A DNA stretch of 64,000 bases from Ilumatobacteraceae bacterium (GTDB lineage Bacteria; Actinomycetota; Acidimicrobiia; Acidimicrobiales; Ilumatobacteraceae), in NCBI GenBank assembly GCA_963722415.1, contig CAVRNI010000026.1:58362-122361 (forward strand). The letters are read 5' to 3'. The position numbers and the translations under genes were made by a program. Positions within the stretch are counted from its first letter, which is position 1. Every line of letters starts with the position of its first letter. Of this stretch, positions 802 to 52,723 are shown piece by piece. Below the pieces are notes generated by a model. It searched no databases. It had not been told where the DNA came from and was given only the letters and a program-made list of their open reading frames with translations.

Positions 802-819
802 CGCTCGGCGACGTGGGCG

Positions 820-1401: not shown

Positions 1402-1524
1402 CCTCGGACAGTACGACAGACCCGGCGCGGAGTCGTCGGGAGCAGCCGCCGGTGCACATCGGACAGAACGATTTTCGCGACCGTCGGTGCAACGATTCGG
1501 ACAGCTCCGGATCTGGGCACGGCT

Positions 1525-2673: not shown

Positions 2674-2741
2674 CGCCGTGTGTCACACCGTGTGTCGGGA
2701 CGGCCCGCGGTCATCCCGACTCGGGTCGGACCGAGCCGCGG

Positions 2742-5266: not shown

Positions 5267-6813
5267 CCCTCCCCCTCCACCCGATCGAGATCAGGGGCGC
5301 CGGGCTGTCGATCGCCGATGTCGTCGCCGTCGCCCGGCACGACACCCCGGTCAGCTTGGCCGACTCGGCCCGTGAGGAGATGGTCCGGTCAGCCACCCTC
5401 GTCGACGGCTTCATCGCCGGCGACCGTCCGGTCTACGGCGTCACCACCGGGTTCGGCTCGCTCGCCGACACCGTGATCCCGCACGAGCGCACCAGCGAGT
5501 TGCAGGTGGCCCTCATCCGCTCCCATGCGGCCGGCATGGGCGAGCCGGTCGAGCGCGAGGTCGTGCGGGCGATGCTCCTGTTGCGCGCCAGGAGCCTCGC
5601 GATGGGCCGGTCGGGCGCCCGCCCGTTGCTGGTCGACCAGCAGTTGGCGCTGCTCAACGCCGGCCTGACGCCCCTCGTGCCCGAGCACGGCTCGCTCGGG
5701 GCCAGCGGCGACCTGGCGCCACTCGCCCACTGCGCGCTGGCGATGATCGGCGAGGGCCATGTCACGATCGACGGGAACATCACGTCGTCCGACGAGGCGC
5801 TCGCCGGCGCCGGCATCGAGCCGGTGGTGCTCCGCGCCAAGGAGGGGCTGGCCCTCATCAACGGCACCGACGGCATCCTGGGGATGCTCTCGCTGGCGAT
5901 CACCGACCTCGAGGTCCTCGCCCGCCTCGCCGACGTGACGGCCGCGATGAGCGTCGAGGCGTTGCTCGGCACCGACCGCGCGTTCGCCGCCGATCTGCAG
6001 GCGTTGCGGCCGCAGGTCGGGCAGGCCGTCAGCGCGGCCAACCTGCGCCGCCTGCTCGCCGGTTCGGCGATCGTGGCCAGCCACCGCGAGGGCGATCCCC
6101 GGGTGCAGGACGCCTACTCCTTGCGGTGCACGCCGCAGGTGCACGGTGCCGCGCTCGACACCATCGCCCACGCCCGCACGATCGCCGAGCGCGAGCTCGA
6201 CGCCGCGATCGACAACCCGATGATCCTGCCCGACGGGCGGGTCGAGTCGTGTGGCAACTTCCATGGCGCACCGCTGGGCTTCGTGTGCGACTTCCTCGCG
6301 ATCGCGGTGTCGGAGCTGTCGGCGATCAGCGAACGCCGTACCGACCGGCTCCTCGACGCCACCCGATCGCACGGCCTGCCGCCGTTCCTCGCGCCCGATC
6401 CTGGCGTCAACTCGGGGATGATGATCGCCCACTACACGCAGGCCGCGATGGCGACGGAGAACAAGCGCCTCGCGGTGCCGGCGAGTGTCGACTCGCTGCC
6501 GACGAGCGCGATGCAGGAGGACCACGTGTCGATGGCGTGGTCGGCCGCCCGCAAGCTGCGCCGCAGCGTCGACAACCTGCGCCGGGTGCTGGCCGTCGAG
6601 TTCGTGTGCGCGGCGCGTGGGATCGATCTGCGGGCGCCCCTCGAACCGGCCGCCGGCACAGGCGCCGCCGTCGGCGCCCTGCGCGGGCGGGTCGACGGCG
6701 CCGGGCCCGATCGGTGGCTGTCGCCCGAGCTCGGTGCGGCCGAGGATCTGATGCGCTCTGGCGCCGTGCTGGACGCGGTGGAGTCAGCGATCGGAACGCT
6801 CGATGTGGTGTAG
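5263..6813 (+). CDS. hutH: Histidine ammonia-lyase
   Basis: The last 516 codons of ORF 4423..6813 start at GTG 5263, which overlaps the accA TGA (GTGA). Contains YGVTTGFGSLAD and the MIO-forming GSLGASGDLAPLAH motif. Confidence 0.93.
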   Translation: MTLPLHPIEIRGAGLSIADVVAVARHDTPVSLADSAREEMVRSATLVDGFIAGDRPVYGVTTGFGSLADTVIPHERTSELQVALIRSHAAGMGEPVEREVVRAMLLLRARSLAMGRSGARPLLVDQQLALLNAGLTPLVPEHGSLGASGDLAPLAHCALAMIGEGHVTIDGNITSSDEALAGAGIEPVVLRAKEGLALINGTDGILGMLSLAITDLEVLARLADVTAAMSVEALLGTDRAFAADLQALRPQVGQAVSAANLRRLLAGSAIVASHREGDPRVQDAYSLRCTPQVHGAALDTIAHARTIAERELDAAIDNPMILPDGRVESCGNFHGAPLGFVCDFLAIAVSELSAISERRTDRLLDATRSHGLPPFLAPDPGVNSGMMIAHYTQAAMATENKRLAVPASVDSLPTSAMQEDHVSMAWSAARKLRRSVDNLRRVLAVEFVCAARGIDLRAPLEPAAGTGAAVGALRGRVDGAGPDRWLSPELGAAEDLMRSGAVLDAVESAIGTLDVV

Positions 6814-6840
6814 ACGCCCAAGGTTGCTCTGGAGGACGCG

Positions 6841-8502
<1,662 letters not shown>

Positions 8503-8504
8503 AG

Positions 8505-9080
8505 GTGGCCGTTCGGGAGATCCTCACCGTGGGGCATCCGGTGCTGCGCGAGCGGGCGCGGGAGGTGTCGGCCGACGAGCTCGCCGGCCACGAGATGCAG
8601 ACGTTGATCGACGACCTCATCGACACCATGCACGCCGCCAACGGCGCCGGGATCGCGGCTCCGCAGATCGGTGTGTCGGTGCGCATCGCCACGATCGAGG
8701 TGAACCACAACCCGCGCTACCCGTACAAGCCGCCGATCCCGCTCACGGTCGTGGTCAATCCGGTGATCGAACCGATCGACGACGAGCAGGTCGAGATCAA
8801 CGAGGGCTGCCTGTCGGTTCCGAACCTGCGGGGCAACGTGATGCGCGCGGTCAACATCCGCGTCCGCTCGCTCGACCGCGACGGCGGCGAACACGACGAG
8901 ATCAAGCGCGGTCTCACCGCCGGCACGTATCAACACGAGTGCGATCACCTCGACGGGATGCTCTTCCTCGATCGCGTCCACGACACCCGGTCGCTGACGA
9001 CGTGGGAGCAGTTCGAGCTCCATCACCGCGACGCGTTCGTGAGCCGGATCACCGAGTTCGTCCGCCGGGTCGGTTCGTGA
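8505..9080 (+). CDS. def: Peptide-deformylase-family protein embedded in the hut operon
   Basis: GTG 8505 lies 2 nt after the hutU stop. All three PDF motifs are present: GAGIAAPQIG, EGCLSVP, QHECDHLDG. The stop overlaps the hutF GTG (GTGA). Confidence 0.85.
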   Translation: MAVREILTVGHPVLRERAREVSADELAGHEMQTLIDDLIDTMHAANGAGIAAPQIGVSVRIATIEVNHNPRYPYKPPIPLTVVVNPVIEPIDDEQVEINEGCLSVPNLRGNVMRAVNIRVRSLDRDGGEHDEIKRGLTAGTYQHECDHLDGMLFLDRVHDTRSLTTWEQFELHHRDAFVSRITEFVRRVGS

Positions 9081-12497: not shown

Positions 12498-13876
12498 CTA
12501 CTCGGCGGCGTCGACGAGCGCCTCGGCGAGCGCCGGGTGCACCAGCAGGCTCTCGACGATGTCGCTGACCTTCAGGTTGGCCGTCACCGCGAGGGCGATC
12601 ACCGAGATCAGCTCCGCGGCGTGGCGTCCGACGATCGACCCGCCGAGCACGACCCCGGTCGCCGGGTCGGAGATGATCTTCACGAAGCCCCGCGAATCGT
12701 TGTTGATCAGGGCCTTCGGAGTGGCGGAGAACGGCACCTTCGTGACGCGGATCTTGCGGCCGACGGCGAACGCCTCGGCTTCGGCGAGGCCGACGTCGGC
12801 GATCTCGGGCTCGGTGAAGATCGCCGAGGCCGCCTTGTCGTAGTCGAGGTGGCGGTGCTCGCGGGTGTGCAGGCCCATCACGTGCTCGGCCACCTTGCGG
12901 CCCTGCATGGCGGCCACCGACGACAGCGGGAGCTTGCCGCTCACGTCGCCGGCCGCGTAGATGTGGGGCTGGTTGGTGACGCAGTGCTGGTTGATCGGGA
13001 TGTAGCCACCGACGTCGACCTCCACACCGGCGACATCGAGTCCGAGCCCCTCCGTGTTCGGCACCGAGCCGATGGCGAGCACGGCGTGGGTCGACCTGAC
13101 GGTGCGACCGTCGTCGCAACTGATGATGACGTGATCGCCGTGCTCGTCGTCGACGGTCCGCTCGATCGACGTCGCCCGTGCGCCCTTCAGCAGGCGTACG
13201 CCGCGGGCGAGGAAGTCCTCCTCGAGGACGGCCGCGACCTCGGGGTCCTTGCCGGGGAGCACCTGCTGGCGGCTCACGACGAGCGTCACCGCGGCGCCGA
13301 ACGACGAGAACATGTGGACGAACTCGACACCCGTCACGCCCGACCCGACGACGGTCACGCTCTCGGGGAACGTCTTGGGTGGGTAGCAGTCGCGCGTGGT
13401 GAGGATGCGGTCGCCGTCGGGGAAGCACCAGTCGGGCACGCGGGGCTTCGAACCGGTCGACACGAGCGGCGCAGTCGAACCCGAGCTCCTGCGTGCCCTC
13501 GGCGGTCTCGACCGTCAACGTGTTCGGGCCCGTGAACCGCGCGACGCCACGGATCAACTCGACACCCTGACTCTCGAGCAGCGTCGTCGTGGCCTTCTGG
13601 AGGTGCGACTTGATGCCCTCGATGCGGGAGATCAGGCCCTCGACGTCGACCTCCGGATGCGTCGGTTCGAGACCCATGCCGTCGATGCGGCGGGAGAAGC
13701 TCATCGCGCCGCCGGTCGCGATCATCGTCTTCGACGGGATGCAGTCCCACAGGTGCGCGGCGCCACCGATCACGTCCCGTTCGATCATCGTGACCTCGCG
13801 CACCGAGGCGGGCGGCATAGGTGGCGGCGGTGTTGCCTGCCGGTCCACCCCCGACGATGACAAAGCGCATGGTCAC
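12498..13876 (-). CDS. Pyridine-nucleotide-disulfide flavoprotein (LpdA/NAD(P)H-quinone-reductase-like), two frame switches (about 13798 and about 13467)
   Basis: Three frame segments join into one protein. Segment 1 is MRFVIVGGGPAGNTAATYAARLGA. Segment 2 is EVTMIERDVIGGAAHLWDCIPSKTMIA...TQELGFDCA. Segment 3 is LVSTGSKPRVPDW...VTVVGSGVTGVEFVHMF...IYAAGDVSG...FTEPEIADVG. Confidence 0.8.

Positions 13877-38208: not shown

Positions 38209-38213
<5 letters not shown>
38163..38213 (+). repeat. REP-like palindromic element, copy 4 (left arm degenerate, lies inside the GT2 3' end)
   Basis: aggcgaccagacgtgccccgacgagacgcacagtgagccgactcaatcaga. It contains the GT2 TGA (38196-38198) and abuts the stop of the convergent MoeZ-like gene. 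Confidence 0.75.
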
Positions 38214-39381
<1,168 letters not shown>

Positions 39382-39390
39382 GCTGAAAGC

Positions 39391-40179
39391 CTACCCCGTG
39401 GGTCGGGTATTGTGAACCAGTGCGGGCAGCACGTCGCTGATCGGCGCCGTCAATTTGGCGTCGGCGAGACCGTCCATCGCCGTCTCCTGGAGGTTGACGA
39501 TCACGACCTTGGCGCCGGCCGACTTGGCGAGCGGCACGCAGTGGGCGACGGGGTACACGGCCAGCGTCGAGCCGATGGCGAGCAGCACGTCGCATTCGCC
39601 GCTGACCTGCATCGCCCGGTCGATCACCTCGGGGACGAGCGCCTGACCGAAGCTGATCGTGTCGCTCTTGATGATGCCGCCGCACACCAGGCACGGCGGA
39701 TCCAATTCGCCGGCCACGACCCGATCGAGTGCCTCGCGCATCGGCCGCCGGTCGTGGCACTCCCAGCAGCGCGTCCACCACACGGTGCCGTGCACCTCGA
39801 CCACCTTGGCCGGATCGGTGCCGGCGCGTTGGTGCAGTTCGTCGATGTTCTGCGTGACGAGCGCGTGGAGCTTGCCCTGCCGATCGAGCTCGACGATCGC
39901 CAGGTGGCCGGCGTTCGGTTCGGCCGTCCACGCCGGCATCGTCAACCGGTTCTGCCAGGCCAGCTTGCGGGTCTCCGGATCGGCCAGGTAGTGCTGGATC
40001 GTCGCCATCTTCTCGGCGGCGGGGTTCTTCGTCCACACGCCGTTCGGCCCCCGGAAGTCGGGGATGCCCGAATCGGTCGAGATCCCGGCCCCGGTGAGCA
40101 CCGTCACCCGCTCGGCGGCCGCGATCCACCCGGCAGCAGCTTCCAGGCCATCCAAGGTGGCATCCGAGATGTCGGCCAT
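39391..40179 (-). CDS. NAD-dependent protein deacylase, Sir2 family (CobB-like)
   Basis: 262 aa from ATG 40177-40179: VLTGAGISTDSGIPDFRGPNGVW...VTQNIDELHQRAG...EVHG...CWEC...CLVCGG (Zn ribbon)...LAIGSTLAVYP. Confidence 0.88.
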   Translation of the reverse strand: MADISDATLDGLEAAAGWIAAAERVTVLTGAGISTDSGIPDFRGPNGVWTKNPAAEKMATIQHYLADPETRKLAWQNRLTMPAWTAEPNAGHLAIVELDRQGKLHALVTQNIDELHQRAGTDPAKVVEVHGTVWWTRCWECHDRRPMREALDRVVAGELDPPCLVCGGIIKSDTISFGQALVPEVIDRAMQVSGECDVLLAIGSTLAVYPVAHCVPLAKSAGAKVVIVNLQETAMDGLADAKLTAPISDVLPALVHNTRPTG

Positions 40180-40222
40180 GTCGCGATTGTGCCCGACTTG
40201 ACGCTCACGGGAGACTTGGAGA

Positions 40223-41327
40223 GTGCCCGTCCCCCGCCGGCTCCTCGTCGCGCTGCTCGCGGTGTGCGCCGCGTGCGGCTCGTCCGCAGAGCCAGCGGAG
40301 TTTTCGGACACGACGCCCGCGGGCGAGCAGAGCACGCGGGCCGCGCCGTCGACGACCACCGCACTGACAACGACGACAGTAGCTGCGGCCTCGGCAACCC
40401 CCGCCGTCGCACCGACCGCCGCCGGTGAGATCCCCGAAGCCGCTCCACCGCTCAACAACGCGGCACGCGTGCACGACGACTGCCGCGCGCGACATCGAGT
40501 TCGACATCGACGCCACGTGCGACATCGCCACCGCCCAGGCGCTGGCGGCGCGACACCCCGGTGTTCGGCAGTTCGTGCTCGTGAAGACGACCTCGTTCAC
40601 CGTGTCGAGCGGCACCGTCGAGGTGATCGGCCGCAGCGTCGACGGCACCTGGCGCTGCCAGCGAGCCGCCCAGACCGCGCGCCTCGGGCGCAACGGCACC
40701 CGCATCCTCGCCGACCGCCGGTCCGGCGACGGCACCACGCCGGCGGGCGTGTTCCCGCTCGGATCGGTGACGGCGTGGGACGGCCAGACGTTCCAGTTCT
40801 TCGGCAACGCACCCGATCCCGGCGTGCGCGGGACGTATCGCAATGTGCGGCACGAGGACTGCTGGGGCGCCACGCCGAACACGGCCCGCTACCAACACGT
40901 CGTCAACCTCCCGCAATGCCCGGGCCCGGATGACGAGTGGCTCGCCGGGGTGGGTGGGGCGTACTCGAACGCGGCCGTCATCGGTGCCAACCTCGACCCG
41001 ATCTCCGGCGACGAGCCCGGCGAACCACCGTTCGCAGCGGCGATCTTCCTGCACCGCCACAGCTACGCGGCCGACGGCTCGACCCGCGGTCTCAGCGGGT
41101 GCGTGTCGCTGTCGCAAGCCGACCTCGAGCACACGCTGCGCACGATCGACCCGGCGTTGAACCCCCAGTTCGCGATCGGCCCGGCCAGCTACCTCCTCGT
41201 CCACCGCCTGACGTTCCGTTCGCGGTCCGATGCTGCGCGACTCGACGGTCCAAGGCCGACGCCCGCATTTGCGTTCGACAGTCAGCGGGGCGTCGAAGTG
41301 TCGTCGACACGTGTGACAGAGTTTTGA
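40223..41327 (+). CDS. Lipoprotein with YkuD-like L,D-transpeptidase-type catalytic domain, frame switch near 40485
   Basis: Lipobox LLAVCAACGS and an Ala/Thr linker lie in the frame of ORF 40223..40933. The rest is in ORF 40425..41327 (DIEFDIDATCD...TPAGVFPLG...AAIFLHRHSYAADGSTRGLSGCVSLSQADLEHTL, i.e. the H...S/T-x-GC motif). Confidence 0.55.
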
Positions 41328-42709: not shown

Positions 42710-43548
42710 CTACCCGAGTTGCAGCATCTTCGCGATCGCATCGAGCGCGGGGGTGCCGGAGGGCCCCCGCGGCTGAACGAGGTCGGCGTGATGCGCCCCG
42801 TCGATGAGCATCGTGTCGGCTCGGATCGAACGTGATTCCAGGTTGGCCGCGAACTCGGCGGTCAAGTCGTCGTTCTCGCCACCGACGAGTGCGAATGACA
42901 CCGTCCTGCGAACGTCGTTGCCGGCGAGCCACCAGCCGGGATTCCCGTGCGTCCAAGCGATCGGTTGGTCGACCGGATCGCCACCGAACCAGTCGACCGT
43001 GGCAGCGGTGACGATCGACGGTGATGGCTCACCGAGCCAGCCGAAATGCCCACCCACCGCCACGACGTGCGCCGGGCCCGCCGTTGGCAACGCCTCCACG
43101 CAGTCGTGGGGCATCGACGCGAATGAGTCCCAGCCGAGGGCGATTGCCGCGATCACGAGCGCCCCGTCGCCCCACCGATGATCGCGATGGGTCTCGTTGC
43201 CGAGTCCCTCGGCGTACCGGGCCGCCCACGTGTAGGCGCACACGACGTCGAAATACGTCTCGGGCCAACCGCCGCCGTGCGCCAGCGGGTGGACGTCGGC
43301 ATTCGCAACGATCGCGCCCGCTCGACAAGCGCGTGACTCAGCCCTGCAAGGTCGCGGCGGTCGCCGCAACACCCGTCGACCGCCACCACGACCACCGGCG
43401 CGGCGCCGGTGTCGGATGGTTCGTACAGATCAAGCACCTGGTCATGGCGATATTCGACCGGCTCGGGTGGTCGGTGGCCCGTCGGCGGCGGGGTGCCACA
43501 GGCCGCCAGCGCGACACCGATGACGACGCCAGCCGCTAGTCGAAACAC
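42710..43548 (-). CDS. Lipoprotein with alpha/beta-hydrolase-like fold, frame switch near 43320
   Basis: MFRLAAGVVIGVALAACG (lipobox)...LDLYEPSDTGAAPVVVVAVDGCCGDRRDLAGLSHALVE continues in ORF 42710..43372 as GAIVANADVHPLAHGGGWPETYFDVVCAYTWAARYA. No clear GxSxG nucleophile was seen. Confidence 0.45.
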
Positions 43549-43569
43549 CGGGCGATCGTCCGGTATCGC

Positions 43570-45636
43570 TCAGTGGGGAGGAACGCTGCCTCCTCGTCCG
43601 GCGTGAGGTTCCGAGCGGCGATCGCGCGACAACCGATCACGAAGGCCGGCACGGTCGACTCGGAACCGCATCGTGGACGATTCGCCCCCCACCGCGATTT
43701 GCTGCGCAGCGGGATCGATCGACACCGACGTGGCCGGATCATTGGCTGACATCGTCAGCGTGCCGATCAGACGCAGGTGCGGAACATCCCAGACGTCGAC
43801 GCCGCCGTCGGATGTCGCCGCGACGAGCAGCTCACCCGTGGCGGACAGGTCAACCGACCGGATCGAGCTGTGCATCACGGGCGGCGACAAGACCTTCCAC
43901 ACCTTGGGATCGCAACCGTCGCCGCCGTCGCCCAACAGGACTCTGGGGTATATCCGGATTTCGCCATCGGACGTGCCGATCGCGACCGTGCCGTCGGCGG
44001 CTACGGCGATGTCGTTGACGCTTCGTCCGAGCTCGATCGACGAGAACTCGCCGGTCGAACCCGGTGGCGCGGACAGCAGCGTGCCGCCCTGGTCGCCGAC
44101 GACCAGATGACCCTCGGCCGAGAGCGCGATCGCGGTCACTCGCCGACCGGTGGGGATCTCCGCCGTGCTCTCGCGGCCATCGTGGACCATCAGGATCTCA
44201 CCCGCGTTGATCCCCGCCGCCAAGTTGTCCGTGTCGACCATCGACAGCGCTGTGAGCTCTCCGGCGCCGGAGGATGGGTGGGTGGCGACCGGCGTCCGCG
44301 ACGCGGCGTCGTACACGACGACTTCGTCGGGCCATCCGCTCACACCGCGGCCGATCGCCGCCAACTCCTCTCCGTCGACGCCGTACGACACGCGGTCGAA
44401 GTCGCCAGTGTGTTCCGACGGCTGCAGCTGGTGGGCGGTGCCGTCGGCGTCGACGATTCGCAGCGTGCCGGACGTGATGACGGCGATCTGACCGTCACCG
44501 TTCGGCCGCACCGCCACGTCGCCGATGCCGCGGTCGCCGTCATCACGTGCGATCGGTTCCGCCCAGCGATTCGGCTGGTCGAGATCCCAGGCGACGAGCC
44601 CGTCGCCGGCGACGGACACGAAAGTGGTGTCCGTCGGACAGATCACGCTGCGGACCGTGTCCGTGTGCGAGGCGAATTCCACCGGTTCGACCAACTGTCC
44701 GCGTTGTCGGCTCCACCGCCGGACGAGATGATCGCGGCCCGCGGTCACGACGCCCGAACCGTCGGGCGACACGCACATCGTCACGACACGGCCTTCGAGC
44801 ACGTCGGAAGAACCACCGGTCCGTTCGTCGACCGTCCCGACGAGTGTGATCGCCGTGGGATTCTCGTCAGCCAGATCCCAGGAGCGGATCGTGAGGTCGT
44901 CGCCCGTGGAGAGCAGTTCGCTGGTGCCCGGCACGAACGCGACCGCGCGGACCTTGCTCGTGTGTGCCGTCAGGGTCTGGGTCGGCTCCAGCGTGGCGCG
45001 CTCCCAAACTCCGATTAGGCAGTGGTTCGTTCCGGCGACCAACCAGCGCCGCTCGTCGTCGACCGCGATTGATCGAACCTTCCGATCGGCCGCCTCGATG
45101 ACGCATTGAGACGACCCTGGGCCGTCTGGCACCGCGAACATGTGCTCGATGGCCGGACTCGACACGTTGGAAACGTCGATCACCGCGACCATGCCGTCCC
45201 ACGTGCCGACGATCAAACGGTCGCCGTCGAAAAGTGCGACGGACACCGGGCTGTCCGTGTCAAGGCGAACGCGACGCGACGTGAGCGACGGATCGGATGT
45301 GTCGATGACGTCGATCCAGCCGTCGCTGCCGACGAACCCGTGCCCGTCGGGTTCGACGTTGCCCCCTCCGACCGCGATCACCGATGTGCTCTCCTGCGCC
45401 GCGATCGCGAGGATGCTGTGTCCGACGTTCGATTTCGTGCTCGGTTCTGCATCGCCCGGGTCCCAGACGTAGAGCTCCCCGAACCCGTCGCCGATCACGA
45501 TCCGGCCGTTGCCCAGCTGGACGGCAGCTTCAAACCCGACGTTGCGGGCGGTGGCATCGATGCGCCGAGCGATGTCTGGATCGTGTTCCGCGGTGACGAG
45601 CATCTCGACCGCCCCGAGATCCGTCTCGTCGATCAT
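43570..45636 (-). CDS. WD40/beta-propeller repeat protein (688 aa), partner of the upstream STAND NTPase
   Basis: Many blades of the type ...VAIGTSDGEIRIYP, LLVAATSDGGVDVWDV, VVTAGRDHLVRRW, LLSTGDDLTIRSWDL, IVIGDGFGELYVWDP. No signal peptide. The ATG overlaps the STAND gene's TGA (ATGA at 45633-45636). Confidence 0.85.
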   Translation of the reverse strand: MIDETDLGAVEMLVTAEHDPDIARRIDATARNVGFEAAVQLGNGRIVIGDGFGELYVWDPGDAEPSTKSNVGHSILAIAAQESTSVIAVGGGNVEPDGHGFVGSDGWIDVIDTSDPSLTSRRVRLDTDSPVSVALFDGDRLIVGTWDGMVAVIDVSNVSSPAIEHMFAVPDGPGSSQCVIEAADRKVRSIAVDDERRWLVAGTNHCLIGVWERATLEPTQTLTAHTSKVRAVAFVPGTSELLSTGDDLTIRSWDLADENPTAITLVGTVDERTGGSSDVLEGRVVTMCVSPDGSGVVTAGRDHLVRRWSRQRGQLVEPVEFASHTDTVRSVICPTDTTFVSVAGDGLVAWDLDQPNRWAEPIARDDGDRGIGDVAVRPNGDGQIAVITSGTLRIVDADGTAHQLQPSEHTGDFDRVSYGVDGEELAAIGRGVSGWPDEVVVYDAASRTPVATHPSSGAGELTALSMVDTDNLAAGINAGEILMVHDGRESTAEIPTGRRVTAIALSAEGHLVVGDQGGTLLSAPPGSTGEFSSIELGRSVNDIAVAADGTVAIGTSDGEIRIYPRVLLGDGGDGCDPKVWKVLSPPVMHSSIRSVDLSATGELLVAATSDGGVDVWDVPHLRLIGTLTMSANDPATSVSIDPAAQQIAVGGESSTMRFRVDRAGLRDRLSRDRRSEPHAGRGGSVPPH

Positions 45637-47978
45637 GTCTGCCGCGGGACCAGGAGCGCCTGGAGTCCCAAACCACCGCTGTAGGCAGCTGCCGACGTCT
45701 GAAGTTGGGTTGCGACCCGCCTATCCGTCTCCGCCTCGGCAGTGCGTTGGGACGCCCTCGCGTCGTTCCGGGCGTGCCACGCGTAGACGCCGAGACCGGT
45801 CGTCAGGACGGCCACCACGACCGCCGCGACGAGTACGACGCGTTCCCAGAGACGCTTGCGGTCCGCCTTGGCGCGACTCCTCGCGATGTATGCCACGAGG
45901 TCCTGCTCGACGACGAAGTCCGAACCGTGCGCCTGCTCGAGCCAGCGTTCGGCGGCTGCGAGGTCGCGGCCGGTGAGTGGCTCCGGGCCGACCCGGCTCT
46001 CCCAGGTCCGACGTTGCATCTCGACGCCACGGTGCAGTTGGACCCACTCCCGGAACGTCGGCCAGCCAGCGATGATCGCGTCGTGGCTCAGGTCGGCGAC
46101 CTGGACGTGGCGCGACGTGCCGCCCTCAACAATCGTCTGGTCGTCGACGGTGATGATGCGTTGGTTCTCGTGACTCAGGATGTCGAAGACCTCCCGGAAG
46201 CCGGCCGGGTCGGCCGCGGCATCGACGAGCTTCGTGACCGGCACCTGGCGACGGGTGTAAAGCTCGCCGTCGCCGAAGTGCACGAGTCGCATGAGGATCG
46301 CACGCGCGATACCCATGCCATCGTCGGGGCGTCGCTGCTTGACGATCTTGAGAGCGTCGTCGGCCTGCCGGCTGATCGCCTCCCGCACGCCGAACTCGCC
46401 AGACGACCACTCCGTTTCTGAGAGCGACAGATACCACCACGGCTGCCGACCCCAGAGCTTGCGGAGCGCCTCCTGCAGGAACGGCATGAGTCCCGGCTGC
46501 CCTTCGGTCTCGCTCGCCAACCGCACCACCAGCGAGTCGGCGATGACGACGCCGAGTTGTCCTGCCGGCTCGCGGATCGCTTGCTCCAGCGCACCTCCGG
46601 TAAGCGGCGTGATCGGCACCAGATCGAGCTCGACAAGCGTCCAGACCGGACTGACCATCAGCTGTCCGTAGAAGTCGGCGCGGACCGTCACGATGATGTG
46701 CAGCTCCGGATCGAGCCGCCGCTGCTCGACGATGGCATTGAGGAAGCGAGTGCCGACGTCCAGTACCGGTTCGTCCGATCCGTCTGTGAGCGGGGGTGCA
46801 ACCCCGAACGCCTGCTCCAGTTGGTCGACGACCAGCACCCTTGCGTGATTGGGGCTGGCTGCCCGATCGAGTCGTTCGAGGACTGGCCCGAGTTCGTCGC
46901 TCGGGCGCACGATCTCGACCGAGCTCTGGGGCCGCCCGTCGAACCCCGCTTCTCGGATTCGAGGGAGCACGCCCGCGAGCACGAGCGACGACTTGCCCGA
47001 ACCCGACGGACCGATCACCGCCGCTATCCGTCGGCGTCGCAGTTGTTCCATGACGAGCTCGATTTCGCGATCCCGGCCGACGAAGGGGTAGCGCTCGTCT
47101 CCGCGGTACGGCCGCATGCCGGGGTAAGGACACGCTGGGGGACGGCTGAGTCGTGGAGGGGCAACGTCGAATGCGCGACAGATCGTCTGCAGCGACTCGT
47201 ACCAGAGCTCACGGTTGAACATGTCAACCCGAACCGGTACGTCGTACTGCTGTGGGATCTCGAACGGATTCGTCGGGTCGCCCGGATTGTCGAGCACCAG
47301 CGGGAGAGACTTGCTGATCTGGCGCGTCTTTTCGAACTCGTCGAGGTAGCGCCCCGCCTCGTGGGCGAGATCGTTCAGGTACGCCCTCGACACCACGACG
47401 ATCACGCGATCGGCCCAGTCGATCGCGTTCTGGAGCGCCTTGAACGCAGGTTCGCCGGAGTCGACTGCTCCGGACAGGGAGGCGACGTCCTTGGCGTCGA
47501 CGTTGGCTTGCCGCAACGCGGGAATGAGGTAGCCCGTCACGAACTCGCGGTCGGCCTCCGATTCGAGGACGAACGCGCGCTTGATCATCCGGTCGACCGC
47601 TTCGATGACCTTGGTCGGATCGTCGTCGTTGCGGAGATCGATCAGGTGATCTGCGGCCGGGAGGTGCTCGACGTCTCCTCGTTGGACCACGACGAGGATC
47701 CCACTGATCGCCGCCTCGTATTCGGTGTACCAACTCTGTCCGTACCATTCGTCGACTGTCGCCACCGTGACCCGGGCTCTCGCCGAGCTCCGCACGATCT
47801 CGTCGATGAGGATCTGACCCGGCACGAAGTCCTTCGTGTCGAGGAGCGCCGAGTAGCCAGCCTGTTCCAACGCCGGTTTCAAGACGTTGCGGACCCACGT
47901 CGCAGTTGGTTCACGGTGCCGGTAGCTCAGGAAGACGTCTCGGTCAGCGGGAGTCACGATCCACCTCACTGACGACAC
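45633..47978 (-). CDS. Tandem-TIR - STAND (nSTAND/NACHT-like) P-loop NTPase with C-terminal transmembrane helix
   Basis: - TIR 1: RDVFLSYRHREPTATWVRNVLKPALEQAGYSALLDTKDFVPGQ...GQSWYTEYEAAIS.
- A second, degenerate TIR-like unit: KRAFVLESEADREFVTGYLIPALRQ...RVIVVVSRAYLND.
- STAND entry motif: CPYPGMRPYRGDERYPFVGRDREIE.
- Walker A: VIGPSGSGKSS. Walker B: VLVVDQLEQAF.
- TM helix: VVLVAAVVVAVLTTGLGVYAW (nt 45777-45839).
The likely true start is GTG 47957, preceded by gaggtgg. Confidence 0.85.
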   Translation of the reverse strand: MSSVRWIVTPADRDVFLSYRHREPTATWVRNVLKPALEQAGYSALLDTKDFVPGQILIDEIVRSSARARVTVATVDEWYGQSWYTEYEAAISGILVVVQRGDVEHLPAADHLIDLRNDDDPTKVIEAVDRMIKRAFVLESEADREFVTGYLIPALRQANVDAKDVASLSGAVDSGEPAFKALQNAIDWADRVIVVVSRAYLNDLAHEAGRYLDEFEKTRQISKSLPLVLDNPGDPTNPFEIPQQYDVPVRVDMFNRELWYESLQTICRAFDVAPPRLSRPPACPYPGMRPYRGDERYPFVGRDREIELVMEQLRRRRIAAVIGPSGSGKSSLVLAGVLPRIREAGFDGRPQSSVEIVRPSDELGPVLERLDRAASPNHARVLVVDQLEQAFGVAPPLTDGSDEPVLDVGTRFLNAIVEQRRLDPELHIIVTVRADFYGQLMVSPVWTLVELDLVPITPLTGGALEQAIREPAGQLGVVIADSLVVRLASETEGQPGLMPFLQEALRKLWGRQPWWYLSLSETEWSSGEFGVREAISRQADDALKIVKQRRPDDGMGIARAILMRLVHFGDGELYTRRQVPVTKLVDAAADPAGFREVFDILSHENQRIITVDDQTIVEGGTSRHVQVADLSHDAIIAGWPTFREWVQLHRGVEMQRRTWESRVGPEPLTGRDLAAAERWLEQAHGSDFVVEQDLVAYIARSRAKADRKRLWERVVLVAAVVVAVLTTGLGVYAWHARNDARASQRTAEAETDRRVATQLQTSAAAYSGGLGLQALLVPRQT

Positions 47979-48899
47979 CCGGCGAGCACGTTCCTGCCAT
48001 CGTCGGTGAGCACGAGCCGGTTGACGGAGTCGAGGTCTCCCGGTGCGAACGGGGATCGCCGGTCATCCGTGGTCCGGTCGGGTACGACCGGCAAGGTCGC
48101 GAAGACGATCCGATCGTGCGACCAGGCACCGATGAGGAAACCAGCGAGCGCCACCGGATCGACGAGCTCGAACCCGGTGTTCCGAAGGACGCGGCTCGCC
48201 GACACGCACGTGCCGGCTCGGTTCGGCGATCTCGACGGCCGCGATGGCCACCGCGAGGTAGGTCTGGGCGTGTGTGATGCGGTCGAGATCGGTCGTCTCG
48301 ACAAGCACCCAATCGTCACCAAAGCGTTCCTCCCACGTGCGGGAGCGAAGGTAGGCGACCGCGTTGGCGCCGACCAATGCCACCGGGCCCGGGCCGGCAT
48401 GGAAGCCGGTCCGACGGTCCAGACTCTCGGCCGGGAGATCGATCTCGACGGGGCCGATGGCCCCGGCGATGTCGGCGACCCCTTTGAGGTCGATGGTGAC
48501 GACCGCCCCGATGCGTACCCCGAGCAGGTCCTCGACGGCGTCCGCCATGGCGCGGGCCCCAGCCGTGTCATAGAGCACCGCCAGTGCTTCGCTGTCGGGC
48601 GCAACAACGAGGTCTCGCGGGATGGACGTGAGCGTCAAGTCGTCGCAATTGCGCCACCACGTGGCCAGCAGGACGGAATCGGCGCGGCGCTCGCCAGGAA
48701 CGTTGTCCTCGACCACCAACAGGATGCTCGCACGGTCAGCGCGCACGTACGCCGTGACCACAACGACGGCCGCGCCAACGAACAGAACGATGAGCGTCCC
48801 AGCAGTGACGACCGTCGCCGTTCGACGTCGTGAGTCGACCGCCAACACCGTTGACAAGTGCTCTGGTCCAAACCGTGCAGGCGGCGGCTCGCCGGTCAT
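47966..48899 (-). CDS. LCP (LytR-CpsA-Psr) family membrane protein, frame switch near 48210
   Basis: MTGEPPPARFG..., TM segment TATVVTAGTLIVLFVGAAVVVVTAYV, then SVLLATWWRNCDDLTLTSIPRDLVV...VVTIDLKGVADIAGAIGPVEIDL...AVAYLRSRTWE...DLDRITHAQTYL. It continues in ORF 47966..48607 as SASRVLRNTGFELVDPVALAGFLIGAW... The stop lies within 13 nt of the TIR gene start. Confidence 0.75.
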
Positions 48900-49447
48900 A
48901 TCGAGATTTCGAAAGTGGTCGTCGTCGGCTCGGGCAGGTCGTTGAGGACAACCCACTCCGGTCCGTCGATCAGGATGCGCCCGTCCACGGTGCAGGTGGC
49001 GACCGGGCAATTGAACTGTTCGAACGTCCGGAGGGCTGCCTCTGTGTGGTCTCCGAACGAACCGTCGACCGCGACCCCGCCGTCAATTCGGGTGCGGAGC
49101 AGGCGTTGCAGCCGTTCGACCTCCTCCCCTTCACAGCCGTGCTGGAGAACTTCAACGCAACGCGTTGACGAGACCGAACTGGTCGAGCTCTTTGGCACCG
49201 TCGTCGTCGTTGTCGAAGTCGATGTCGATGTCGAAGTCGAAGTCGTTGTCGAAGTGGACGAAGACGTCGACGTCGAAGACGTTGACGGTGACGTTGACGT
49301 TGACGTTGACGTCGTCACCGCGATGGTCGTGGACGTGGTGGCATCGTCGTCGTCAGCGCACGACGCCACCAGTAGGACAAATACCACGAGCACGGGCAGG
49401 TACCACCCTGCCTGGCTGAGGGGCGATCTGCGGTGTCCTCCACCCAT
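48896..49447 (-). CDS. Lipoprotein with Ser/Thr-rich linker and peptidoglycan-binding (PG_binding_1-like) domain
   Basis: The lipobox is LLVASC. A TTSTTIAVTTSTSTSTSPSTSSTSTSSSTSTTTSTSTSTSTSTTTTT linker follows. The PG-binding domain is VLQHGCEGEEVERLQRLLRTRIDGGVAVDGSFGDHTEAALRTFEQ. The stop overlaps the LCP ATG (ATGA). Confidence 0.75.
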   Translation of the reverse strand: MGGGHRRSPLSQAGWYLPVLVVFVLLVASCADDDDATTSTTIAVTTSTSTSTSPSTSSTSTSSSTSTTTSTSTSTSTSTTTTTVPKSSTSSVSSTRCVEVLQHGCEGEEVERLQRLLRTRIDGGVAVDGSFGDHTEAALRTFEQFNCPVATCTVDGRILIDGPEWVVLNDLPEPTTTTFEISI

Positions 49448-51177: not shown

Positions 51178-52564
51178 CTACACGATGGCGGCGATCACGT
51201 CCGACAGGGCCCGAACCGTCGACACCTCGAACACGCCGTCGCAGTGCGGCCGGTACTGCGCCATCGCCGAGTCGTCGGTCTCCCACTCGGCTTCCGGTTC
51301 GGGATCGAGCCAGTACACGCGGCGCGCCCGGTCGGCGATGCGCGCGAACGCGGCGACACCGGCATCACGGAAGTTGGTGCGGCCGTCACCCGTCACGAGC
51401 ACCGTCGTGCGCCGTCCCACCGCCTCGTCGAGGAACTGATCGCAGAACTGCTGGAACACGGCCCCGTAGTCGCTGTGCCCGTCGAACCCGACGACGCCGC
51501 GGCGCTCGAGCACGCGTTGCACCGGGACGTCGAAGTTGGCGGTCGTGAAGATCTCGGTCATGTCGGCGACACCGCCGACGAAGGCGAAGCTCCGCACCCC
51601 TGCCAGGACGTCGTGGATCGCGTGCACGAGCGTGAACGTGAACTGGGCGAACTCGGCGACCGAGCCCGAGATGTCGCACAGCACGACGACGTCGGGCCGG
51701 TGCGGATGGGTTCGCCGCAGGGCCGGGATCGATCGGGATGCCCCCGGTCTGGAGTGAGCGCCGGAACGTCCGGCGGGGATCGAGGCGGCCCGTCGAACGT
51801 GGCCGGCGACGGCGACCGATGCGCGCCGCGAGCTGGCGGGCCAGCGGTTGGAGCGTGCGCCTGAGCTCGGCCAGCTCGGCGCTCGACAACGACAGCACGG
51901 GCCGGTCGAGCGCGCCGATCGGCAGCGCCTGATCGTCGTCGTCGCCTGGTGCGGCGAGCCGGCTCTTGGCGATCTCGTCGGCGAGCGCCCGCCGGAACTC
52001 CTCGAGCGCCCTGGCGACCTCGTGGCGGCGGAGCGACAGCTCGAACTCCGACAGATCGCCCTCGGCACGAAGCCGGCGCATCACGGCCGAGAGCATGTTG
52101 GCGAGGTCGATGGCGCGCATGATGCGGTGGATCACGAGCCGGTCGGACGCGTCGTCGCCGCCGTACATCGCCACCGCCCGGGCGGCGAGACCTCGCATCG
52201 CGTCACTGTCGCCGCGGGCGGCCGCGGCGCCGACGTCGGCGGCGAGGGTGGCGGCCGTCGAACGATCCGTCGCACGGTCGAACGCGGGGTCGACGGCATC
52301 CGGCTGCTCGGGCAACGCCACGCCCGGGGCGAAGACGAGGTCGAACGCCCGGTCGAAGACCGCCAGGTCCGGCTCGCGCGAGATCATCACCGATCGCAGC
52401 GCGCTGCGAACCAGCTCGCGATCGAGCAGATCGAGCAGCATCAACGCCCGAGTGGCATCGATCAGGTCGCCGGTCGCGACCTCGATCCCGGCTCGGCGCA
52501 GCACGGTCGCGAGGCGCGTCACGTGATCGATCATCGGGCCGCCGACCTGGGATGATGGCGTCAT
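51178..52564 (-). CDS. VWA-domain CoxE-like protein, frame switch near 51720
   Basis: MIDHVTRLATVLRRAGIEVATGDLIDATRAL...RRTFRRSLQTGGIPIDP continues in ORF 51178..52068 as ALRRTHPHRPDVVVLCDISGSVAEFAQF...VTGDGRTNF...VYWLDPEPE. Confidence 0.75.
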
Positions 52565-52723
52565 CTCCGGTCACACTAGGCACCGCCGTGAGCGCGTCAA
52601 TTGTGCCTGCAAGGATTTGACACCACCGGAGGAGCGACCGAGACTGTGCGGAGGGAACGCCGTCCGCACATCCAGCAGATATCAGTCGATCACCACGACC
52701 GGGCGCCGGAGGGAGTCAGCACC

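What the first reader, a model, noticed from the sequence alone, without database searches (positions are those of the whole stretch)
43570..49447. Stop/start-overlapping operon joins a PG-binding lipoprotein and an LCP envelope protein to a tandem-TIR STAND NTPase and a WD40 propeller
Four minus-strand genes are chained by overlapping or nearly overlapping start and stop codons:
- PG-binding lipoprotein to LCP: ATGA overlap at 48896-48899.
- LCP stop at 47966, within 13 nt of the TIR gene start.
- STAND to WD40: ATGA overlap at 45633-45636.
- A further lipoprotein gene follows after 22 nt.

The TIR + P-loop STAND + WD40 core has the logic of death/defence-type conflict systems: TIR as NAD-consuming or signalling effector, the STAND NTPase as switch, the propeller as sensor.

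I am not aware of such a core being transcriptionally welded to cell-wall biogenesis and cell-wall-binding proteins (LCP teichoic-acid/glycopolymer ligase family, PG_binding_1 domain). The arrangement suggests the module monitors or acts on envelope integrity, for example phage adsorption or wall damage, rather than a cytoplasmic trigger.

Hand counts of a few 60-nt lines in the TIR gene give about 58-65% GC, against about 73% in the hut operon. This hints at foreign origin.
Basis: partly seen in the sequence, partly recalled or inferred. Interest (0 to 1): 0.8.

Follow-up and report, generated by a model that had tools for sequence, protein, structure and literature searches.

The report
Envelope-linked TIR–STAND receptor gene cassette
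A rare group of soil actinobacteria carries a tightly packed four-gene cassette in which an immune-type "death switch" protein, apparently spanning the membrane with its sensor outside the cell, always travels with three cell-wall proteins; this suggests it watches the cell envelope rather than the cell interior.

Summary
The genes and domain calls are real, but the gene structure was misread. The window comes from an indel-ridden, probably long-read, assembly. As a result the LCP gene is frameshifted, and the "STAND" and "WD40" genes are one gene of about 1,470 codons, so their ATGA overlap is an artefact. Near-identical and related sequences from other assemblies read straight through that junction.

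The real unit is a four-gene cassette:
- a lipoprotein with a Thr/Ser-rich linker, with or without a PG_binding_1 domain;
- a membrane-anchored LCP enzyme with its catalytic arginines intact;
- TIR–TIR–nSTAND1–TM helix–double WD40 propeller;
- a secreted esterase-fold protein carrying an HGCCGD motif, which often lacks its serine nucleophile.

In 14 of 14 loci where both positions can be seen, this LCP subfamily and this TIR–STAND clade are adjacent, found by searching from either gene. The esterase-like gene follows in every locus where the downstream region is readable. Flanking genes differ between loci, and start/stop overlaps are conserved. Outgroup nSTAND1 genes have no LCP neighbour.

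The TM helix and the positive-inside rule place the WD40 sensor outside the membrane, next to its three partners. No catalogued defence system matches, and I found no description in the literature. Function is inferred only. I rate it a new variant of a known kind.

The parts
48896..49447 (-). Gene 1: lipoprotein. It has a signal peptide and lipobox (...LLVASC), a Thr/Ser-rich low-complexity linker, and a C-terminal PG_binding_1 domain (about 48977-49129). Its stop overlaps the LCP start (ATGA at 48896-48899).
   Evidence: Pfam PG_binding_1, E 1e-7, 32.3 bits against a cutoff of 23. Hydrophobic N-terminus. Homologous PG-binding C-domain upstream of LCP in L003, L005, L012 and JGI 3300041967. 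Lipoprotein without that domain in L002, L006, L007, L008, L011 and L014.
47966..48899 (-). Gene 2: LCP (LytR-CpsA-Psr) phosphotransferase. It has an N-terminal TM anchor (residues about 30-48) and an extracytoplasmic catalytic domain. In this assembly it is broken by one indel at about 48195-48202.
   Evidence: Pfam PF03816, 65 bits. PDB sequence matches to TagV, TagU and A. oris LcpA 5v8c. Window R72, R95 and R207 align with LcpA R128, R149 and R266 and are invariant or nearly so in the subfamily, as is a Cys pair. The frame switch is shown by the GC3 plot and my own HMM scan.
47586..47942 (-). TIR1. An extra N-terminal TIR domain specific to this clade. Candidate catalytic Glu at E81, in helix alpha-C, 'SWYTEYEAA'.
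   Evidence: Pfam TIR_2 and TIR. AlphaFold2 model, pLDDT 86.7, shows two flavodoxin-like units. Foldseek top hits are all TIR domains. In alignment A3 the single TIR of generic nSTAND1 proteins aligns with TIR2, not TIR1.
47172..47582 (-). TIR2. The second TIR domain, orthologous to the single TIR of generic TIR-nSTAND1 proteins.
46008..47129 (-). nSTAND1 STAND NTPase module. Walker A is GPSGSGKS and Walker B is VLVVDQLE.
   Evidence: Pfam PF20703, E 9e-63, 213.7 bits. Motifs found.
45777..45839 (-). Single transmembrane helix (VVLVAAVVVAVLTTGLGVY) between the NTPase and the WD40 region.
   Evidence: Kyte-Doolittle score 2.47. An equivalent helix is seen in 12 of 12 inspected homologues and 126 of 146 scanned. 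K+R in the flanking 15 residues averages 5.0 on the N-side and 2.5 on the C-side, with N>C in 114 of 126.
43536..45776 (-). Predicted extracytoplasmic region: a linker plus about 690 aa of WD40 repeats (estimated from length as two propellers; blades not counted). It ends in a conserved Cys-x(n)-Cys tail (GCRAIAARNLTPDEEAAFLPTERYRTIARCFD). It belongs to the same gene as the TIR-STAND part. Indels at about 45642-45650 and about 43627-43640 break the frame in this assembly.
   Evidence: Pfam WD40 families. Read-through in P0262, P0002, P0004, P0005, L005, L006 and the JGI contigs. HMM segments.
42710..43548 (-). Gene 4: lipoprotein with an alpha/beta-hydrolase fold nearest the HSL-type esterases. 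The invariant HGCCGD motif replaces HGGG. The nucleophile position is Gly here (GWGDG). The start GTG at 43548 overlaps the core gene's stop by 13 nt. Frameshifted in this assembly; the intact form is P0271, 280 aa.
   Evidence: HMM hits. The family has only 61 members at E<=1e-3 among 1.84 billion representatives. Alignment A4 shows 4 invariant Cys and a variable nucleophile, S/D/G/A. AlphaFold2 model of homologue P0207 has pLDDT 92.4, and Foldseek places it with HSL-family esterases. P0271.

Best explanation
SHOWN
- This is a conserved, self-contained four-gene operon of uncultured Acidimicrobiia (Ilumatobacteraceae and Acidimicrobiales MAGs).
- Gene order is: lipoprotein with a Thr/Ser-rich linker (with or without PG_binding_1); a membrane-anchored LCP phosphotransferase; one large protein, TIR-TIR-nSTAND1-TM helix-WD40 region of about 690 aa; and a secreted esterase-fold protein.

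INFERRED FROM TOPOLOGY
- The core protein is a single-pass membrane receptor.
- The tandem TIR domains and the ATP-driven STAND switch sit in the cytoplasm. The WD40 region sits outside the membrane.
- There it is next to the LCP catalytic domain, the lipoprotein and the esterase-like protein, which are all exported.

INFERRED BY ANALOGY with Avs, bNACHT and NLR-type STAND proteins and with TIR NADases
- A change at the wall/membrane interface is registered by the propellers, directly or through the three partner proteins. Candidate cues are attack on, or occupation of, the LCP/lipid-linked glycopolymer machinery by a phage or competitor, or wall damage.
- The signal crosses the membrane, the nSTAND1 module oligomerises, and the TIR domains are brought together.
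- The TIR domains then consume NAD+ or make a nucleotide signal, causing growth arrest or death of the affected cell.

ROLE OF THE PARTNERS
- The LCP keeps its catalytic arginines, so it is probably an active transferase. It may fix a glycopolymer to peptidoglycan or to the Thr/Ser-rich lipoprotein.
- The esterase-fold protein has lost its serine in about half of the family, including here. It more likely acts as a binding or adaptor (decoy-like) subunit than as an enzyme.
For: GENE STRUCTURE
- The core is a single ORF of 1451-1481 aa in short-read assemblies (L006; JGI contigs) and in the long-read MAG L005.
- P0262 and P0271 show that intact versions of the window's own genes exist.

LINKAGE
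- Starting from STAND: L001, L002, L003 and L014 all have LCP immediately upstream.
- Starting from LCP: L005-L008, L010-L012 and the two JGI contigs all have TIR-STAND starting within about 50 nt downstream.
- HYD follows the core in the window, L001-L006, L014 and both JGI contigs.
- A lipoprotein lies upstream wherever that sequence is readable.
- The 4-nt and 10-13-nt start/stop overlaps are conserved.
- Only the cassette, not its flanks, matches between loci.
- All components diverge at similar rates, 38-55% identity.
- All three accessory families are tiny: 27 LCP-subfamily clusters, 61 HYD representatives and about 9 STAND-clade clusters.
- Outgroup nSTAND1 genes P0011 and P0032 have no LCP neighbour.

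TOPOLOGY
- TM helix and positive-inside statistics.
- Lipoboxes, signal peptides and anchors on the partners.
- Invariant Cys pairs in LCP and four invariant Cys in HYD.
- The actinobacterial LCP disulfide is documented for A. oris LcpA (PMC6381275).

MODULES
- TIR fold. nSTAND1 with Walker motifs. LCP catalytic Arg residues. Esterase fold.
- The nSTAND1 clade was defined in the context of predicted counter-invader conflict systems (PMC8195603).
Against: - No experiment, transcript or phenotype is available. Topology rests on hydrophobicity and charge bias, not on a dedicated predictor or assay.
- PADLOC models give no meaningful hit.
- The window's neighbours are ordinary metabolic and envelope genes, not a defence island.
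- Only some other loci sit near mobile or defence-type genes: an rve transposase in L001, an integrase in L003, SLATT_1 in L002 and TIR-SIR2 in the JGI contig.
- The sensor region is not hypervariable relative to the rest of the cassette, unlike many immune receptors.
- The catalytic competence of the TIR domains is assigned only by motif position (E81).
- All loci come from one bacterial class, so part of the conservation could be shared ancestry.
Confidence: 0.55

Rival explanations
1. This is a conventional cytoplasm-sensing STAND defence protein of the Avs/bNACHT kind. The hydrophobic helix only tethers it to the membrane or is not membrane-spanning. The WD40 region recognises a phage protein inside the cell. 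The wall genes are co-transcribed for an unrelated reason, for example to repair or remodel the wall after activation.
For: - Characterised bacterial STANDs sense phage proteins in the cytoplasm (PMC12803255; bioRxiv 2022.07.19.500537).
- WD40 propellers are typical cytoplasmic sensors, as in Apaf-1.
- The DGR paper predicted its nSTAND1 targets to be cytoplasmic (PMC10907252).
Against: - A single strongly hydrophobic 19-mer with a 2:1 positive-inside bias is conserved in 126 of 146 homologues. A true single-pass helix must put the two sides in different compartments.
- All three strictly co-conserved partners are exported.
- This rival offers no reason for dedicated, tiny accessory families.
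Confidence: 0.15
2. This is not immunity but envelope housekeeping or signalling. The cassette would be a wall-stress or developmental receptor system. The extracellular propellers, with LCP, the esterase-like protein and the lipoprotein, report the state of glycopolymer attachment. The TIR domains produce a regulatory nucleotide or act only as assembly scaffolds, without killing the cell.
For: - The window's genomic neighbourhood is ordinary: pepA, a YkuD-like L,D-transpeptidase, GT2 and DegT genes.
- The sensor is not hypervariable.
- The LCP retains its catalytic residues and therefore probably does real wall chemistry.
- Transmembrane receptors with extracellular beta-propellers, such as PknD-type kinases, are known signalling devices in actinobacteria (my own knowledge).
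Against: - TIR plus STAND architectures in bacteria are overwhelmingly linked to conflict or abortive infection (PMC8195603).
- The cassette's distribution is patchy and rare, and it lies in non-syntenic contexts, sometimes next to a transposase, an integrase, TIR-SIR2 or SLATT genes. That pattern is typical of accessory defence genes rather than core wall regulation.
Confidence: 0.22
3. The locus is a decaying pseudogene cluster in this genome, with several frameshifts, and has no current function.
For: At least five frame breaks lie within 6.7 kb.
Against: - Frameshifts are equally present in unrelated genes, including housekeeping-type genes, of the window.
- Sister long-read contigs L001-L003 and L014 show the same kind of breaks at different positions.
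- Near-identical sequences from other assemblies are intact at each break that could be examined: P0262 at the core junction and P0271 for HYD.
- GC3 periodicity stays strong through every segment.
Confidence: 0.04
4. The wall genes and the TIR-STAND gene are adjacent by chance.
For: None beyond the prior that LCP genes are common in actinobacteria. A second, generic LCP gene lies at about 1600-2680 in the same window.
Against: - Adjacency holds in 14 of 14 loci, in both search directions.
- Overlapping stop/start codons are conserved at 40-55% protein identity, and the flanks differ.
- The generic LCP locus L013 and outgroup STAND loci lack the partner gene.
Confidence: 0.01

Closest known systems
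TIR-nSTAND1-WD40 (or FGE/TPR) proteins of predicted counter-invader 'conflict systems' in multicellular bacteria (Kaur, Iyer, Burroughs & Aravind 2021, PMC8195603; Pfam PF20703)
   Same: Same NTPase clade: a full-length nSTAND1 match with Walker A and B motifs. Same layout of an N-terminal TIR effector and a C-terminal repeat sensor. The TM helix after the NTPase is shared by nearly all relatives inspected.
   Different: This clade has a second, extra N-terminal TIR. It is locked into an operon with a dedicated LCP enzyme, an esterase-fold protein and a lipoprotein. Outgroup members lack these: P0011 sits next to a caspase-TIR gene and P0032 has none. LytR/LCP is not mentioned in the two defining papers. 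The membrane topology of nSTAND1 proteins is not discussed there either.
Antiviral STAND / bacterial NLR-like defence proteins (Avs, bNACHT)
   Same: Tripartite logic of effector, STAND NTPase switch and repeat sensor. Activation by oligomerisation is the expected mechanism. TM-containing bacterial NACHT proteins have been suggested to sense membrane or periplasmic signals.
   Different: Different NTPase clade. No PADLOC model hit. Characterised members are soluble and bind phage proteins in the cytoplasm, and none is reported with cell-wall enzyme partners.
LCP (LytR-CpsA-Psr) glycopolymer transferases, especially Actinomyces oris LcpA (PDB 5V8C), which glycosylates the surface protein GspA
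   Same: LCP fold and sequence match. The three catalytic arginines, an N-terminal membrane anchor and an actinobacterial-type Cys pair are present. Like lcpA-gspA, the gene is linked to a gene for a surface protein, here a Thr/Ser-rich lipoprotein.
   Different: It forms a small, distinct subfamily with LRSRTWEE and RRSPF motifs (27 clusters) that occurs only next to TIR-STAND genes. The substrate and acceptor are unknown.
Animal Toll-like receptors (functional analogy only)
   Same: An extracellular repeat sensor, a single TM helix and a cytoplasmic TIR. The Foldseek top hits of the TIR model include TLR and MyD88 TIR domains.
   Different: Orientation is reversed: the TIR is N-terminal here. 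A STAND NTPase lies between the TIR and the membrane. The sensor is WD40, not LRR. The resemblance is architectural, with no evidence of common descent.
Hormone-sensitive-lipase (HSL) family carboxylesterases
   Same: Fold (Foldseek E about 1e-11 to 1e-10, TM about 0.55-0.68). An oxyanion-hole motif at the HGGG position and a nucleophile elbow at the GxSxG position.
   Different: HGCCGD replaces HGGG. There are four invariant cysteines. The protein is exported or lipid-anchored. The nucleophile serine is replaced by Gly, Asp or Ala in about half of the members, including the window's copy.

Membership tests
nSTAND1 STAND NTPases (Pfam PF20703) | Full-length match to the nSTAND1 profile above the curated threshold | tested here: met
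   213.7 bits against a cutoff of 27.1, profile positions 1-362 of 379.
nSTAND1 STAND NTPases (Pfam PF20703) | P-loop Walker A and Walker B motifs intact | tested here: met
   GPSGSGKS at residue 316 and VLVVDQLE.
nSTAND1 STAND NTPases (Pfam PF20703) | N-terminal effector and C-terminal repeat sensor in one polypeptide | tested here: met
   Met after correcting the assembly indel. P0262, L005, L006 and the JGI contigs show one ORF of 1451-1481 aa.
nSTAND1 STAND NTPases (Pfam PF20703) | Role in counter-invader conflict or defence | not testable with these tools
   Context hints only: TIR-SIR2, SLATT, integrase or transposase genes near some loci.
TIR-domain NADases | TIR (flavodoxin-like) fold | tested here: met
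   Pfam TIR_2 with 2 stretches. AlphaFold2 model with pLDDT 86.7 shows two units. Foldseek hits TIR domains with target-normalised TM up to 0.76.
TIR-domain NADases | Catalytic glutamate in helix alpha-C | tested here: inconclusive
   E81 in predicted helix 77-84 is conserved in L005, L006, P0002 and P0003 by eye. No residue-level structural superposition was available. Generic nSTAND1 TIRs have Asp at the corresponding place in TIR2.
TIR-domain NADases | NAD+ cleavage or cyclase activity | not testable with these tools
   Requires biochemistry.
LCP (LytR-CpsA-Psr) phosphotransferases | LCP domain match above threshold | tested here: met
   PF03816, 64.8-65.2 bits against a cutoff of 24.6. PDB sequence hits to TagV, TagU and LcpA.
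LCP (LytR-CpsA-Psr) phosphotransferases | Three conserved catalytic arginines (A. oris LcpA R128, R149, R266) | tested here: met
   Window R72, R95 and R207 align to them in the 5v8c alignment (numbering from PMC6381275). They are invariant or at least 90% conserved in the 15-sequence subfamily alignment A2.
LCP (LytR-CpsA-Psr) phosphotransferases | N-terminal membrane anchor with an extracytoplasmic catalytic domain | tested here: met
   Hydrophobic segment at residues 30-48, Kyte-Doolittle 2.72. An invariant Cys pair is consistent with an exported, disulfide-bonded domain.
PG_binding_1 peptidoglycan-binding domain | Profile match above threshold | tested here: met
   32.3 bits against a cutoff of 23, residues 107-157. 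The L003 homologue scores 23.8 bits.
Alpha/beta-hydrolase, HSL-type esterases | Alpha/beta-hydrolase fold | tested here: met
   AlphaFold2 model of family member P0207, pLDDT 92.4. Foldseek hits HSL esterases at E 5e-12 to 1e-9. Pfam hits are only sub-threshold.
Alpha/beta-hydrolase, HSL-type esterases | Ser-Asp-His catalytic triad | tested here: not met
   The window's copy and P0271 have GWGDG, with Gly at the nucleophile. Across the family the position is S, D, G or A. I do not file it as an active esterase.
Catalogued anti-phage defence systems (PADLOC-DB v2) | Significant match of the core proteins to any system model | tested here: not met
   Only marginal hits: mad8 at 1.6e-4 over the P-loop, and a HEAT-ARM model hit over the WD40 region.

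The most novel reading that the evidence does not exclude
The cassette may be a bacterial 'outside-sensing NLR'. In this reading a transmembrane TIR-STAND receptor uses its extracellular WD40 region to guard a dedicated wall-assembly complex. That complex would consist of an active LCP transferase, a pseudo-esterase decoy and a glycosylated lipoprotein. The receptor would trigger TIR-mediated NAD+ depletion when a phage or competitor engages or damages the complex. This would be a guard/decoy immune logic operating in the cell envelope before genome entry. Because the TM helix is shared by most nSTAND1 proteins, it would also imply that a whole large STAND family senses extracytoplasmic rather than cytoplasmic cues.
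Probability: 0.3. Interest if true: 0.85.

Novelty: new variant of a known kind. Interest (0 to 1): 0.62.

Why it matters
- Characterised bacterial STAND/NLR-like immune proteins detect invaders inside the cell. This locus shows a TIR-STAND receptor whose sensor is predicted to lie outside the membrane and which is genetically tied to three exported wall proteins.
- If it works as inferred, it would be an NLR-type switch monitoring the envelope. That is a stage of attack (adsorption, wall degradation, glycopolymer targeting) for which few dedicated sensors are known.
- It would give LCP enzymes and a pseudo-esterase a role in immunity or signalling.
- The family-wide TM helix, with 126 of 146 relatives showing positive-inside bias, suggests the point generalises to many nSTAND1 proteins in cyanobacteria, Chloroflexi and actinobacteria.
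- The cassette is compact, about 6.7 kb, and could be synthesised and tested heterologously.
- Methodological lesson: stop/start 'overlaps' in long-read MAGs can be indel artefacts.

Tried and rejected
- Exact-sequence look-ups of the window's 781-aa and 774-aa STAND proteins found no contig on record.
- PADLOC scan: nothing useful.
- Promoter and terminator consensus scan of 42.3-49.9 kb: no promoter-like site, and one terminator-like site inside the WD40 region at below chance frequency. Uninformative for a 69% GC actinobacterium.
- Search for direct or inverted repeats flanking the cassette as signs of a mobile element: only chance-level short matches and the Thr/Ser-coding low-complexity repeats in the lipoprotein gene.
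- The metagenome scan with the LCP alignment returned only 7 loci, mostly short contigs. DNA was not retrievable for two JGI contigs, so only their gene tables were used.
- Literature searches for LytR/LCP together with STAND or TIR found nothing. Broader searches found only general remarks about TM-containing STAND proteins.
- I considered that the frameshifts signal pseudogenisation or programmed frameshifting. I rejected this because unrelated genes are hit too and intact near-identical copies exist.
- I considered the WD40 sensor to be hypervariable. It is not: its identity between loci is similar to that of the other domains.
- I did not attempt a residue-level structural superposition of the TIR active site, because no tool offered one.

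Full report
**1. What is in the window**

Four minus-strand coding regions lie between 42.7 and 49.45 kb.

- PG_binding_1 in 48896-49447.
- LytR_cpsA_psr in the next gene.
- Two TIR_2 stretches plus a full-length nSTAND1 module (213.7 bits) in 45633-47978.
- WD40 families in 43570-45636.

The ATGA at 48896-48899 and the TGA at 47966-47968 are present.

The reading frames are not clean.
- The stretch 48899..47966 is 934 nt, which is not divisible by three.
- A GC3 frame plot and three-frame translations show frame switches in four places: the LCP gene (about 48.2 kb), the STAND/WD40 boundary (about 45.645 kb), near the WD40 3' end (about 43.63 kb), and the downstream lipoprotein gene (about 43.32 kb).
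- Similar breaks occur in unrelated genes of the window. The VWA_CoxE profile is split over two frames at 51.2-52.6 kb. A second LCP gene at 0.8-2.7 kb is split. A Pyr_redox_2 gene lacks its N-terminus in frame.
- The window therefore comes from an assembly with frequent indels.
- The closest relatives are Microflora Danica-type long-read contigs, and they show the same kind of breaks at other positions.

**2. STAND and WD40 are one gene**

Homologues P0002, P0004 and P0005 read through the supposed gene boundary.

P0262 belongs to the same 90% identity cluster as the window's protein but comes from another sample. It reads '...GLGLQALLVRAADMIDETDLGAVEMLVTAE...'. The window gives '...LQALLVPRQT*' in one frame and 'AADMIDETDL...' in the next. 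One missing base in GTCC(G)CGCGG explains the difference.

Related loci show the same single gene:
- The short-read MAG L006 has one ORF of 1451 aa.
- L005 has one ORF.
- Two JGI contigs have ORFs of 1452 and 1481 aa.

The ATGA 'overlap' at 45633-45636 is thus an artefact. With the frame corrected, the core gene ends at TAG 43536-43538 and overlaps the GTG start (43548) of the next gene by 13 nt. P0271 (280 aa) is an intact version of that next gene from a near-identical organism.

**3. The conserved unit**

I built HMMs from the sequences in hand and scanned six-frame translations of all fetched loci. I also read the gene tables of three further contigs.
- Loci found through the STAND protein (L001, L002, L003, L014) all have the LCP gene immediately upstream.
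- Loci found through the LCP protein with downstream sequence (L005-L008, L010-L012, two JGI contigs) all have a TIR-STAND gene starting within about 50 nt.
- Counting the window, that is 14 of 14 loci.
- The esterase-like gene (HYD) follows the core in every locus where that region is readable: the window, L001-L006, L014 and both JGI contigs.
- Upstream of LCP there is always a lipoprotein gene with a lipobox and a Thr/Ser/Pro/Gly-rich linker.
It is present in the window, L003, L005, L012 and one JGI contig.
- Junction overlaps (ATGA, ATGA, 10-13 nt) are conserved.
- tblastx shows that only the cassette, not the flanks, is shared between the window and any locus, even the closest one, L005.
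- Components diverge in parallel, at 38-55% identity.

All three accessory families are tiny:
- 27 clusters of this LCP subfamily in 5.8 billion proteins.
- 61 HYD representatives in 1.84 billion.
- About nine STAND-clade clusters before identity drops to generic nSTAND1 levels.

Controls behave as expected. A generic LCP (L013) has no STAND neighbour. The outgroup nSTAND1 proteins P0011 and P0032 have no LCP neighbour.

The two loci with taxonomy are an Ilumatobacteraceae MAG and an Acidimicrobiales MAG.

**4. Anatomy of the parts**

*Core protein* (about 1,470 aa, reconstructed)
- An AlphaFold2 model of residues 1-290 has pLDDT 86.7. It shows two flavodoxin-like units whose Foldseek hits are all TIR domains.
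- In alignment A3 the single TIR of generic nSTAND1 proteins matches the second unit. The first TIR is therefore a clade-specific addition.
- A candidate catalytic Glu (E81) lies in predicted helix alpha-C and is conserved in the clade. I could not superpose active sites.
- Next come nSTAND1 with intact Walker motifs and one strongly hydrophobic helix.
- After the helix come about 740 aa: a linker plus WD40 repeats (about 690 aa), ending in a conserved two-cysteine tail. By length this would fit two propellers; I did not count blades.

*Topology*
- The hydrophobic helix is present in 12 of 12 diverse relatives read by eye and in 126 of 146 scanned.
- K+R counts in the flanking 15 residues average 5.0 on the N-side and 2.5 on the C-side. 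N exceeds C in 114 of 126.
- By the positive-inside rule the TIR and NTPase are cytoplasmic and the sensor is extracytoplasmic.

*LCP*
- It has an N-terminal anchor.
- R72, R95 and R207 align with A. oris LcpA R128, R149 and R266, the residues needed for pyrophosphatase and phosphotransfer activity (PMC6381275).
- It has an invariant Cys pair like the actinobacterial LCP disulfide.

*HYD*
- It is a lipoprotein or secreted protein with an HSL-esterase-like fold.
- It has an invariant HGCCGD motif and four invariant Cys.
- The nucleophile serine is replaced by Gly (here), Asp or Ala in about half of the members. It is therefore often a pseudoenzyme.

**5. Most likely mechanism**

*Shown:* a conserved operon encoding one membrane-spanning TIR-STAND-WD40 protein and three exported wall-associated proteins.

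*Inferred:* the WD40 ectodomain, together with LCP, HYD and the lipoprotein, forms an envelope-facing sensing complex.
1. A perturbation at the wall/membrane interface is relayed across the membrane.
2. The STAND module oligomerises.
3. The TIR domains act on NAD+.

I put about 0.55 on this envelope-sensing conflict/abortive model. The rivals are:
- A non-lethal envelope-signalling role: about 0.22.
- Conventional cytoplasmic sensing with the wall genes incidental to sensing: about 0.15.
- Pseudogene decay (about 0.04) and chance adjacency (about 0.01): effectively excluded.

Points against a defence reading:
- No PADLOC hit.
- Ordinary neighbours in the window.
- No hypervariability of the sensor.

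Points for a defence reading:
- The TIR-STAND logic itself.
- Patchy, rare, non-syntenic distribution.
- Neighbours such as an rve transposase, an integrase, SLATT_1 and TIR-SIR2 in other loci.

**6. Comparison with what is known**

- TIR-nSTAND1-repeat proteins were defined in the context of predicted conflict systems (PMC8195603).
- Membrane-proximal conflict systems with peptidoglycan-binding domains have been described for other NTPase systems (PMC7159879).
- TM-bearing bacterial NACHT proteins were suggested to sense membrane or periplasmic signals.
- Neither LytR/LCP nor this cassette appears in those papers. A combined search for LytR, STAND NTPase and TIR found no paper.

I therefore rate it a new variant of a known kind. 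The parts are known. What appears undescribed is the obligatory LCP, pseudo-esterase and lipoprotein partnership, the tandem TIR, and the explicit outside-sensing topology.

**7. GC claim**

- The cassette is 66.7% GC against 69.3% outside it (z about -3).
- TIR1+2 is 63.6% and the lipoprotein gene 61.4%, the latter because of its Thr/Ser repeats.
- With the lack of synteny this is compatible with horizontal movement, but it is weak evidence on its own.

**8. Verdict**

Interest is moderate to high (0.62): a specialist would find the strict linkage and the predicted topology unexpected, but function is wholly inferred and the hosts are uncultured.

Noticed in passing
window 51178-52570 (-), 823-2682 (-), 12498-13872 (-): Unrelated genes are split across reading frames. 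VWA_CoxE matches profile positions 1-48 in one frame and 43-219 in another. A generic LCP gene matches 1-62 and 59-146. A Pyr_redox_2 gene lacks its N-terminus in frame. This points to assembly-wide indel errors, typical of long-read MAGs.
   Followed up: partly
window ~1600-2680 (-): A second, generic LCP (LytR_cpsA_psr) gene lies in the same stop-to-stop frame as an MDMPI_N domain. It has no STAND neighbour and is only distantly related to the cassette LCP (E 1e-21 against the subfamily HMM).
   Followed up: partly
nSTAND1 homologues P0006-P0200 (not in the window): Nearly all nSTAND1 proteins inspected have a single hydrophobic helix about 100 residues after the 'SHEAxI' motif, with a 2:1 positive-inside bias. 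They come from cyanobacteria, Chloroflexi and others, and carry WD40, FGE-sulfatase or TPR sensors. This implies that the sensor domains of the whole family may be extracytoplasmic. I found no discussion of this in the papers read.
   Followed up: partly
JGI 3300041967 contig (31.5 kb), genes 175-1809 (-) and 2122-8871 (+): A TIR_2-SIR2_2 gene, a defence-type architecture, lies divergently next to the full cassette.
   Followed up: no
L002 15263-16187 (-); L001 675-950 and 7854-8582; L003 4904-6076: A SLATT_1 gene plus a small partner lie just downstream of the cassette in L002. L001 has an rve transposase fragment upstream, and a 242-aa ORF of unassigned family (no Pfam hit on record) follows HYD. 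L003 has a phage-type integrase about 2 kb upstream (about 2.4 kb from the LCP gene). These hint at mobility or defence-island context in some loci.
   Followed up: no
window 39394-40596 (-), 38212-39390 (-), 40383-41327 (+): A Sir2-family gene, a ThiF+rhodanese (MoeZ-like) gene and a weak YkuD L,D-transpeptidase-like gene lie 2-4 kb from the cassette. They look like ordinary chromosomal genes. The Sir2 gene was not examined for a defence role.
   Followed up: no
L003 ~8700-8760 (LCP gene): The L003 LCP has 'SIPATF' where every other subfamily member has 'SIPRDL', so the R149-equivalent arginine is lost. This may be a sequencing error in a long-read contig or a genuinely inactive copy.
   Followed up: no
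window 49182-49315 (-): Short tandem GTCGWC-type repeats encode the Thr/Ser-rich linker of the lipoprotein. Such linkers are typical O-glycosylation targets in actinobacteria. Sitting next to an LCP gene, this recalls the LcpA-GspA enzyme-substrate pair of Actinomyces oris.
   Followed up: no
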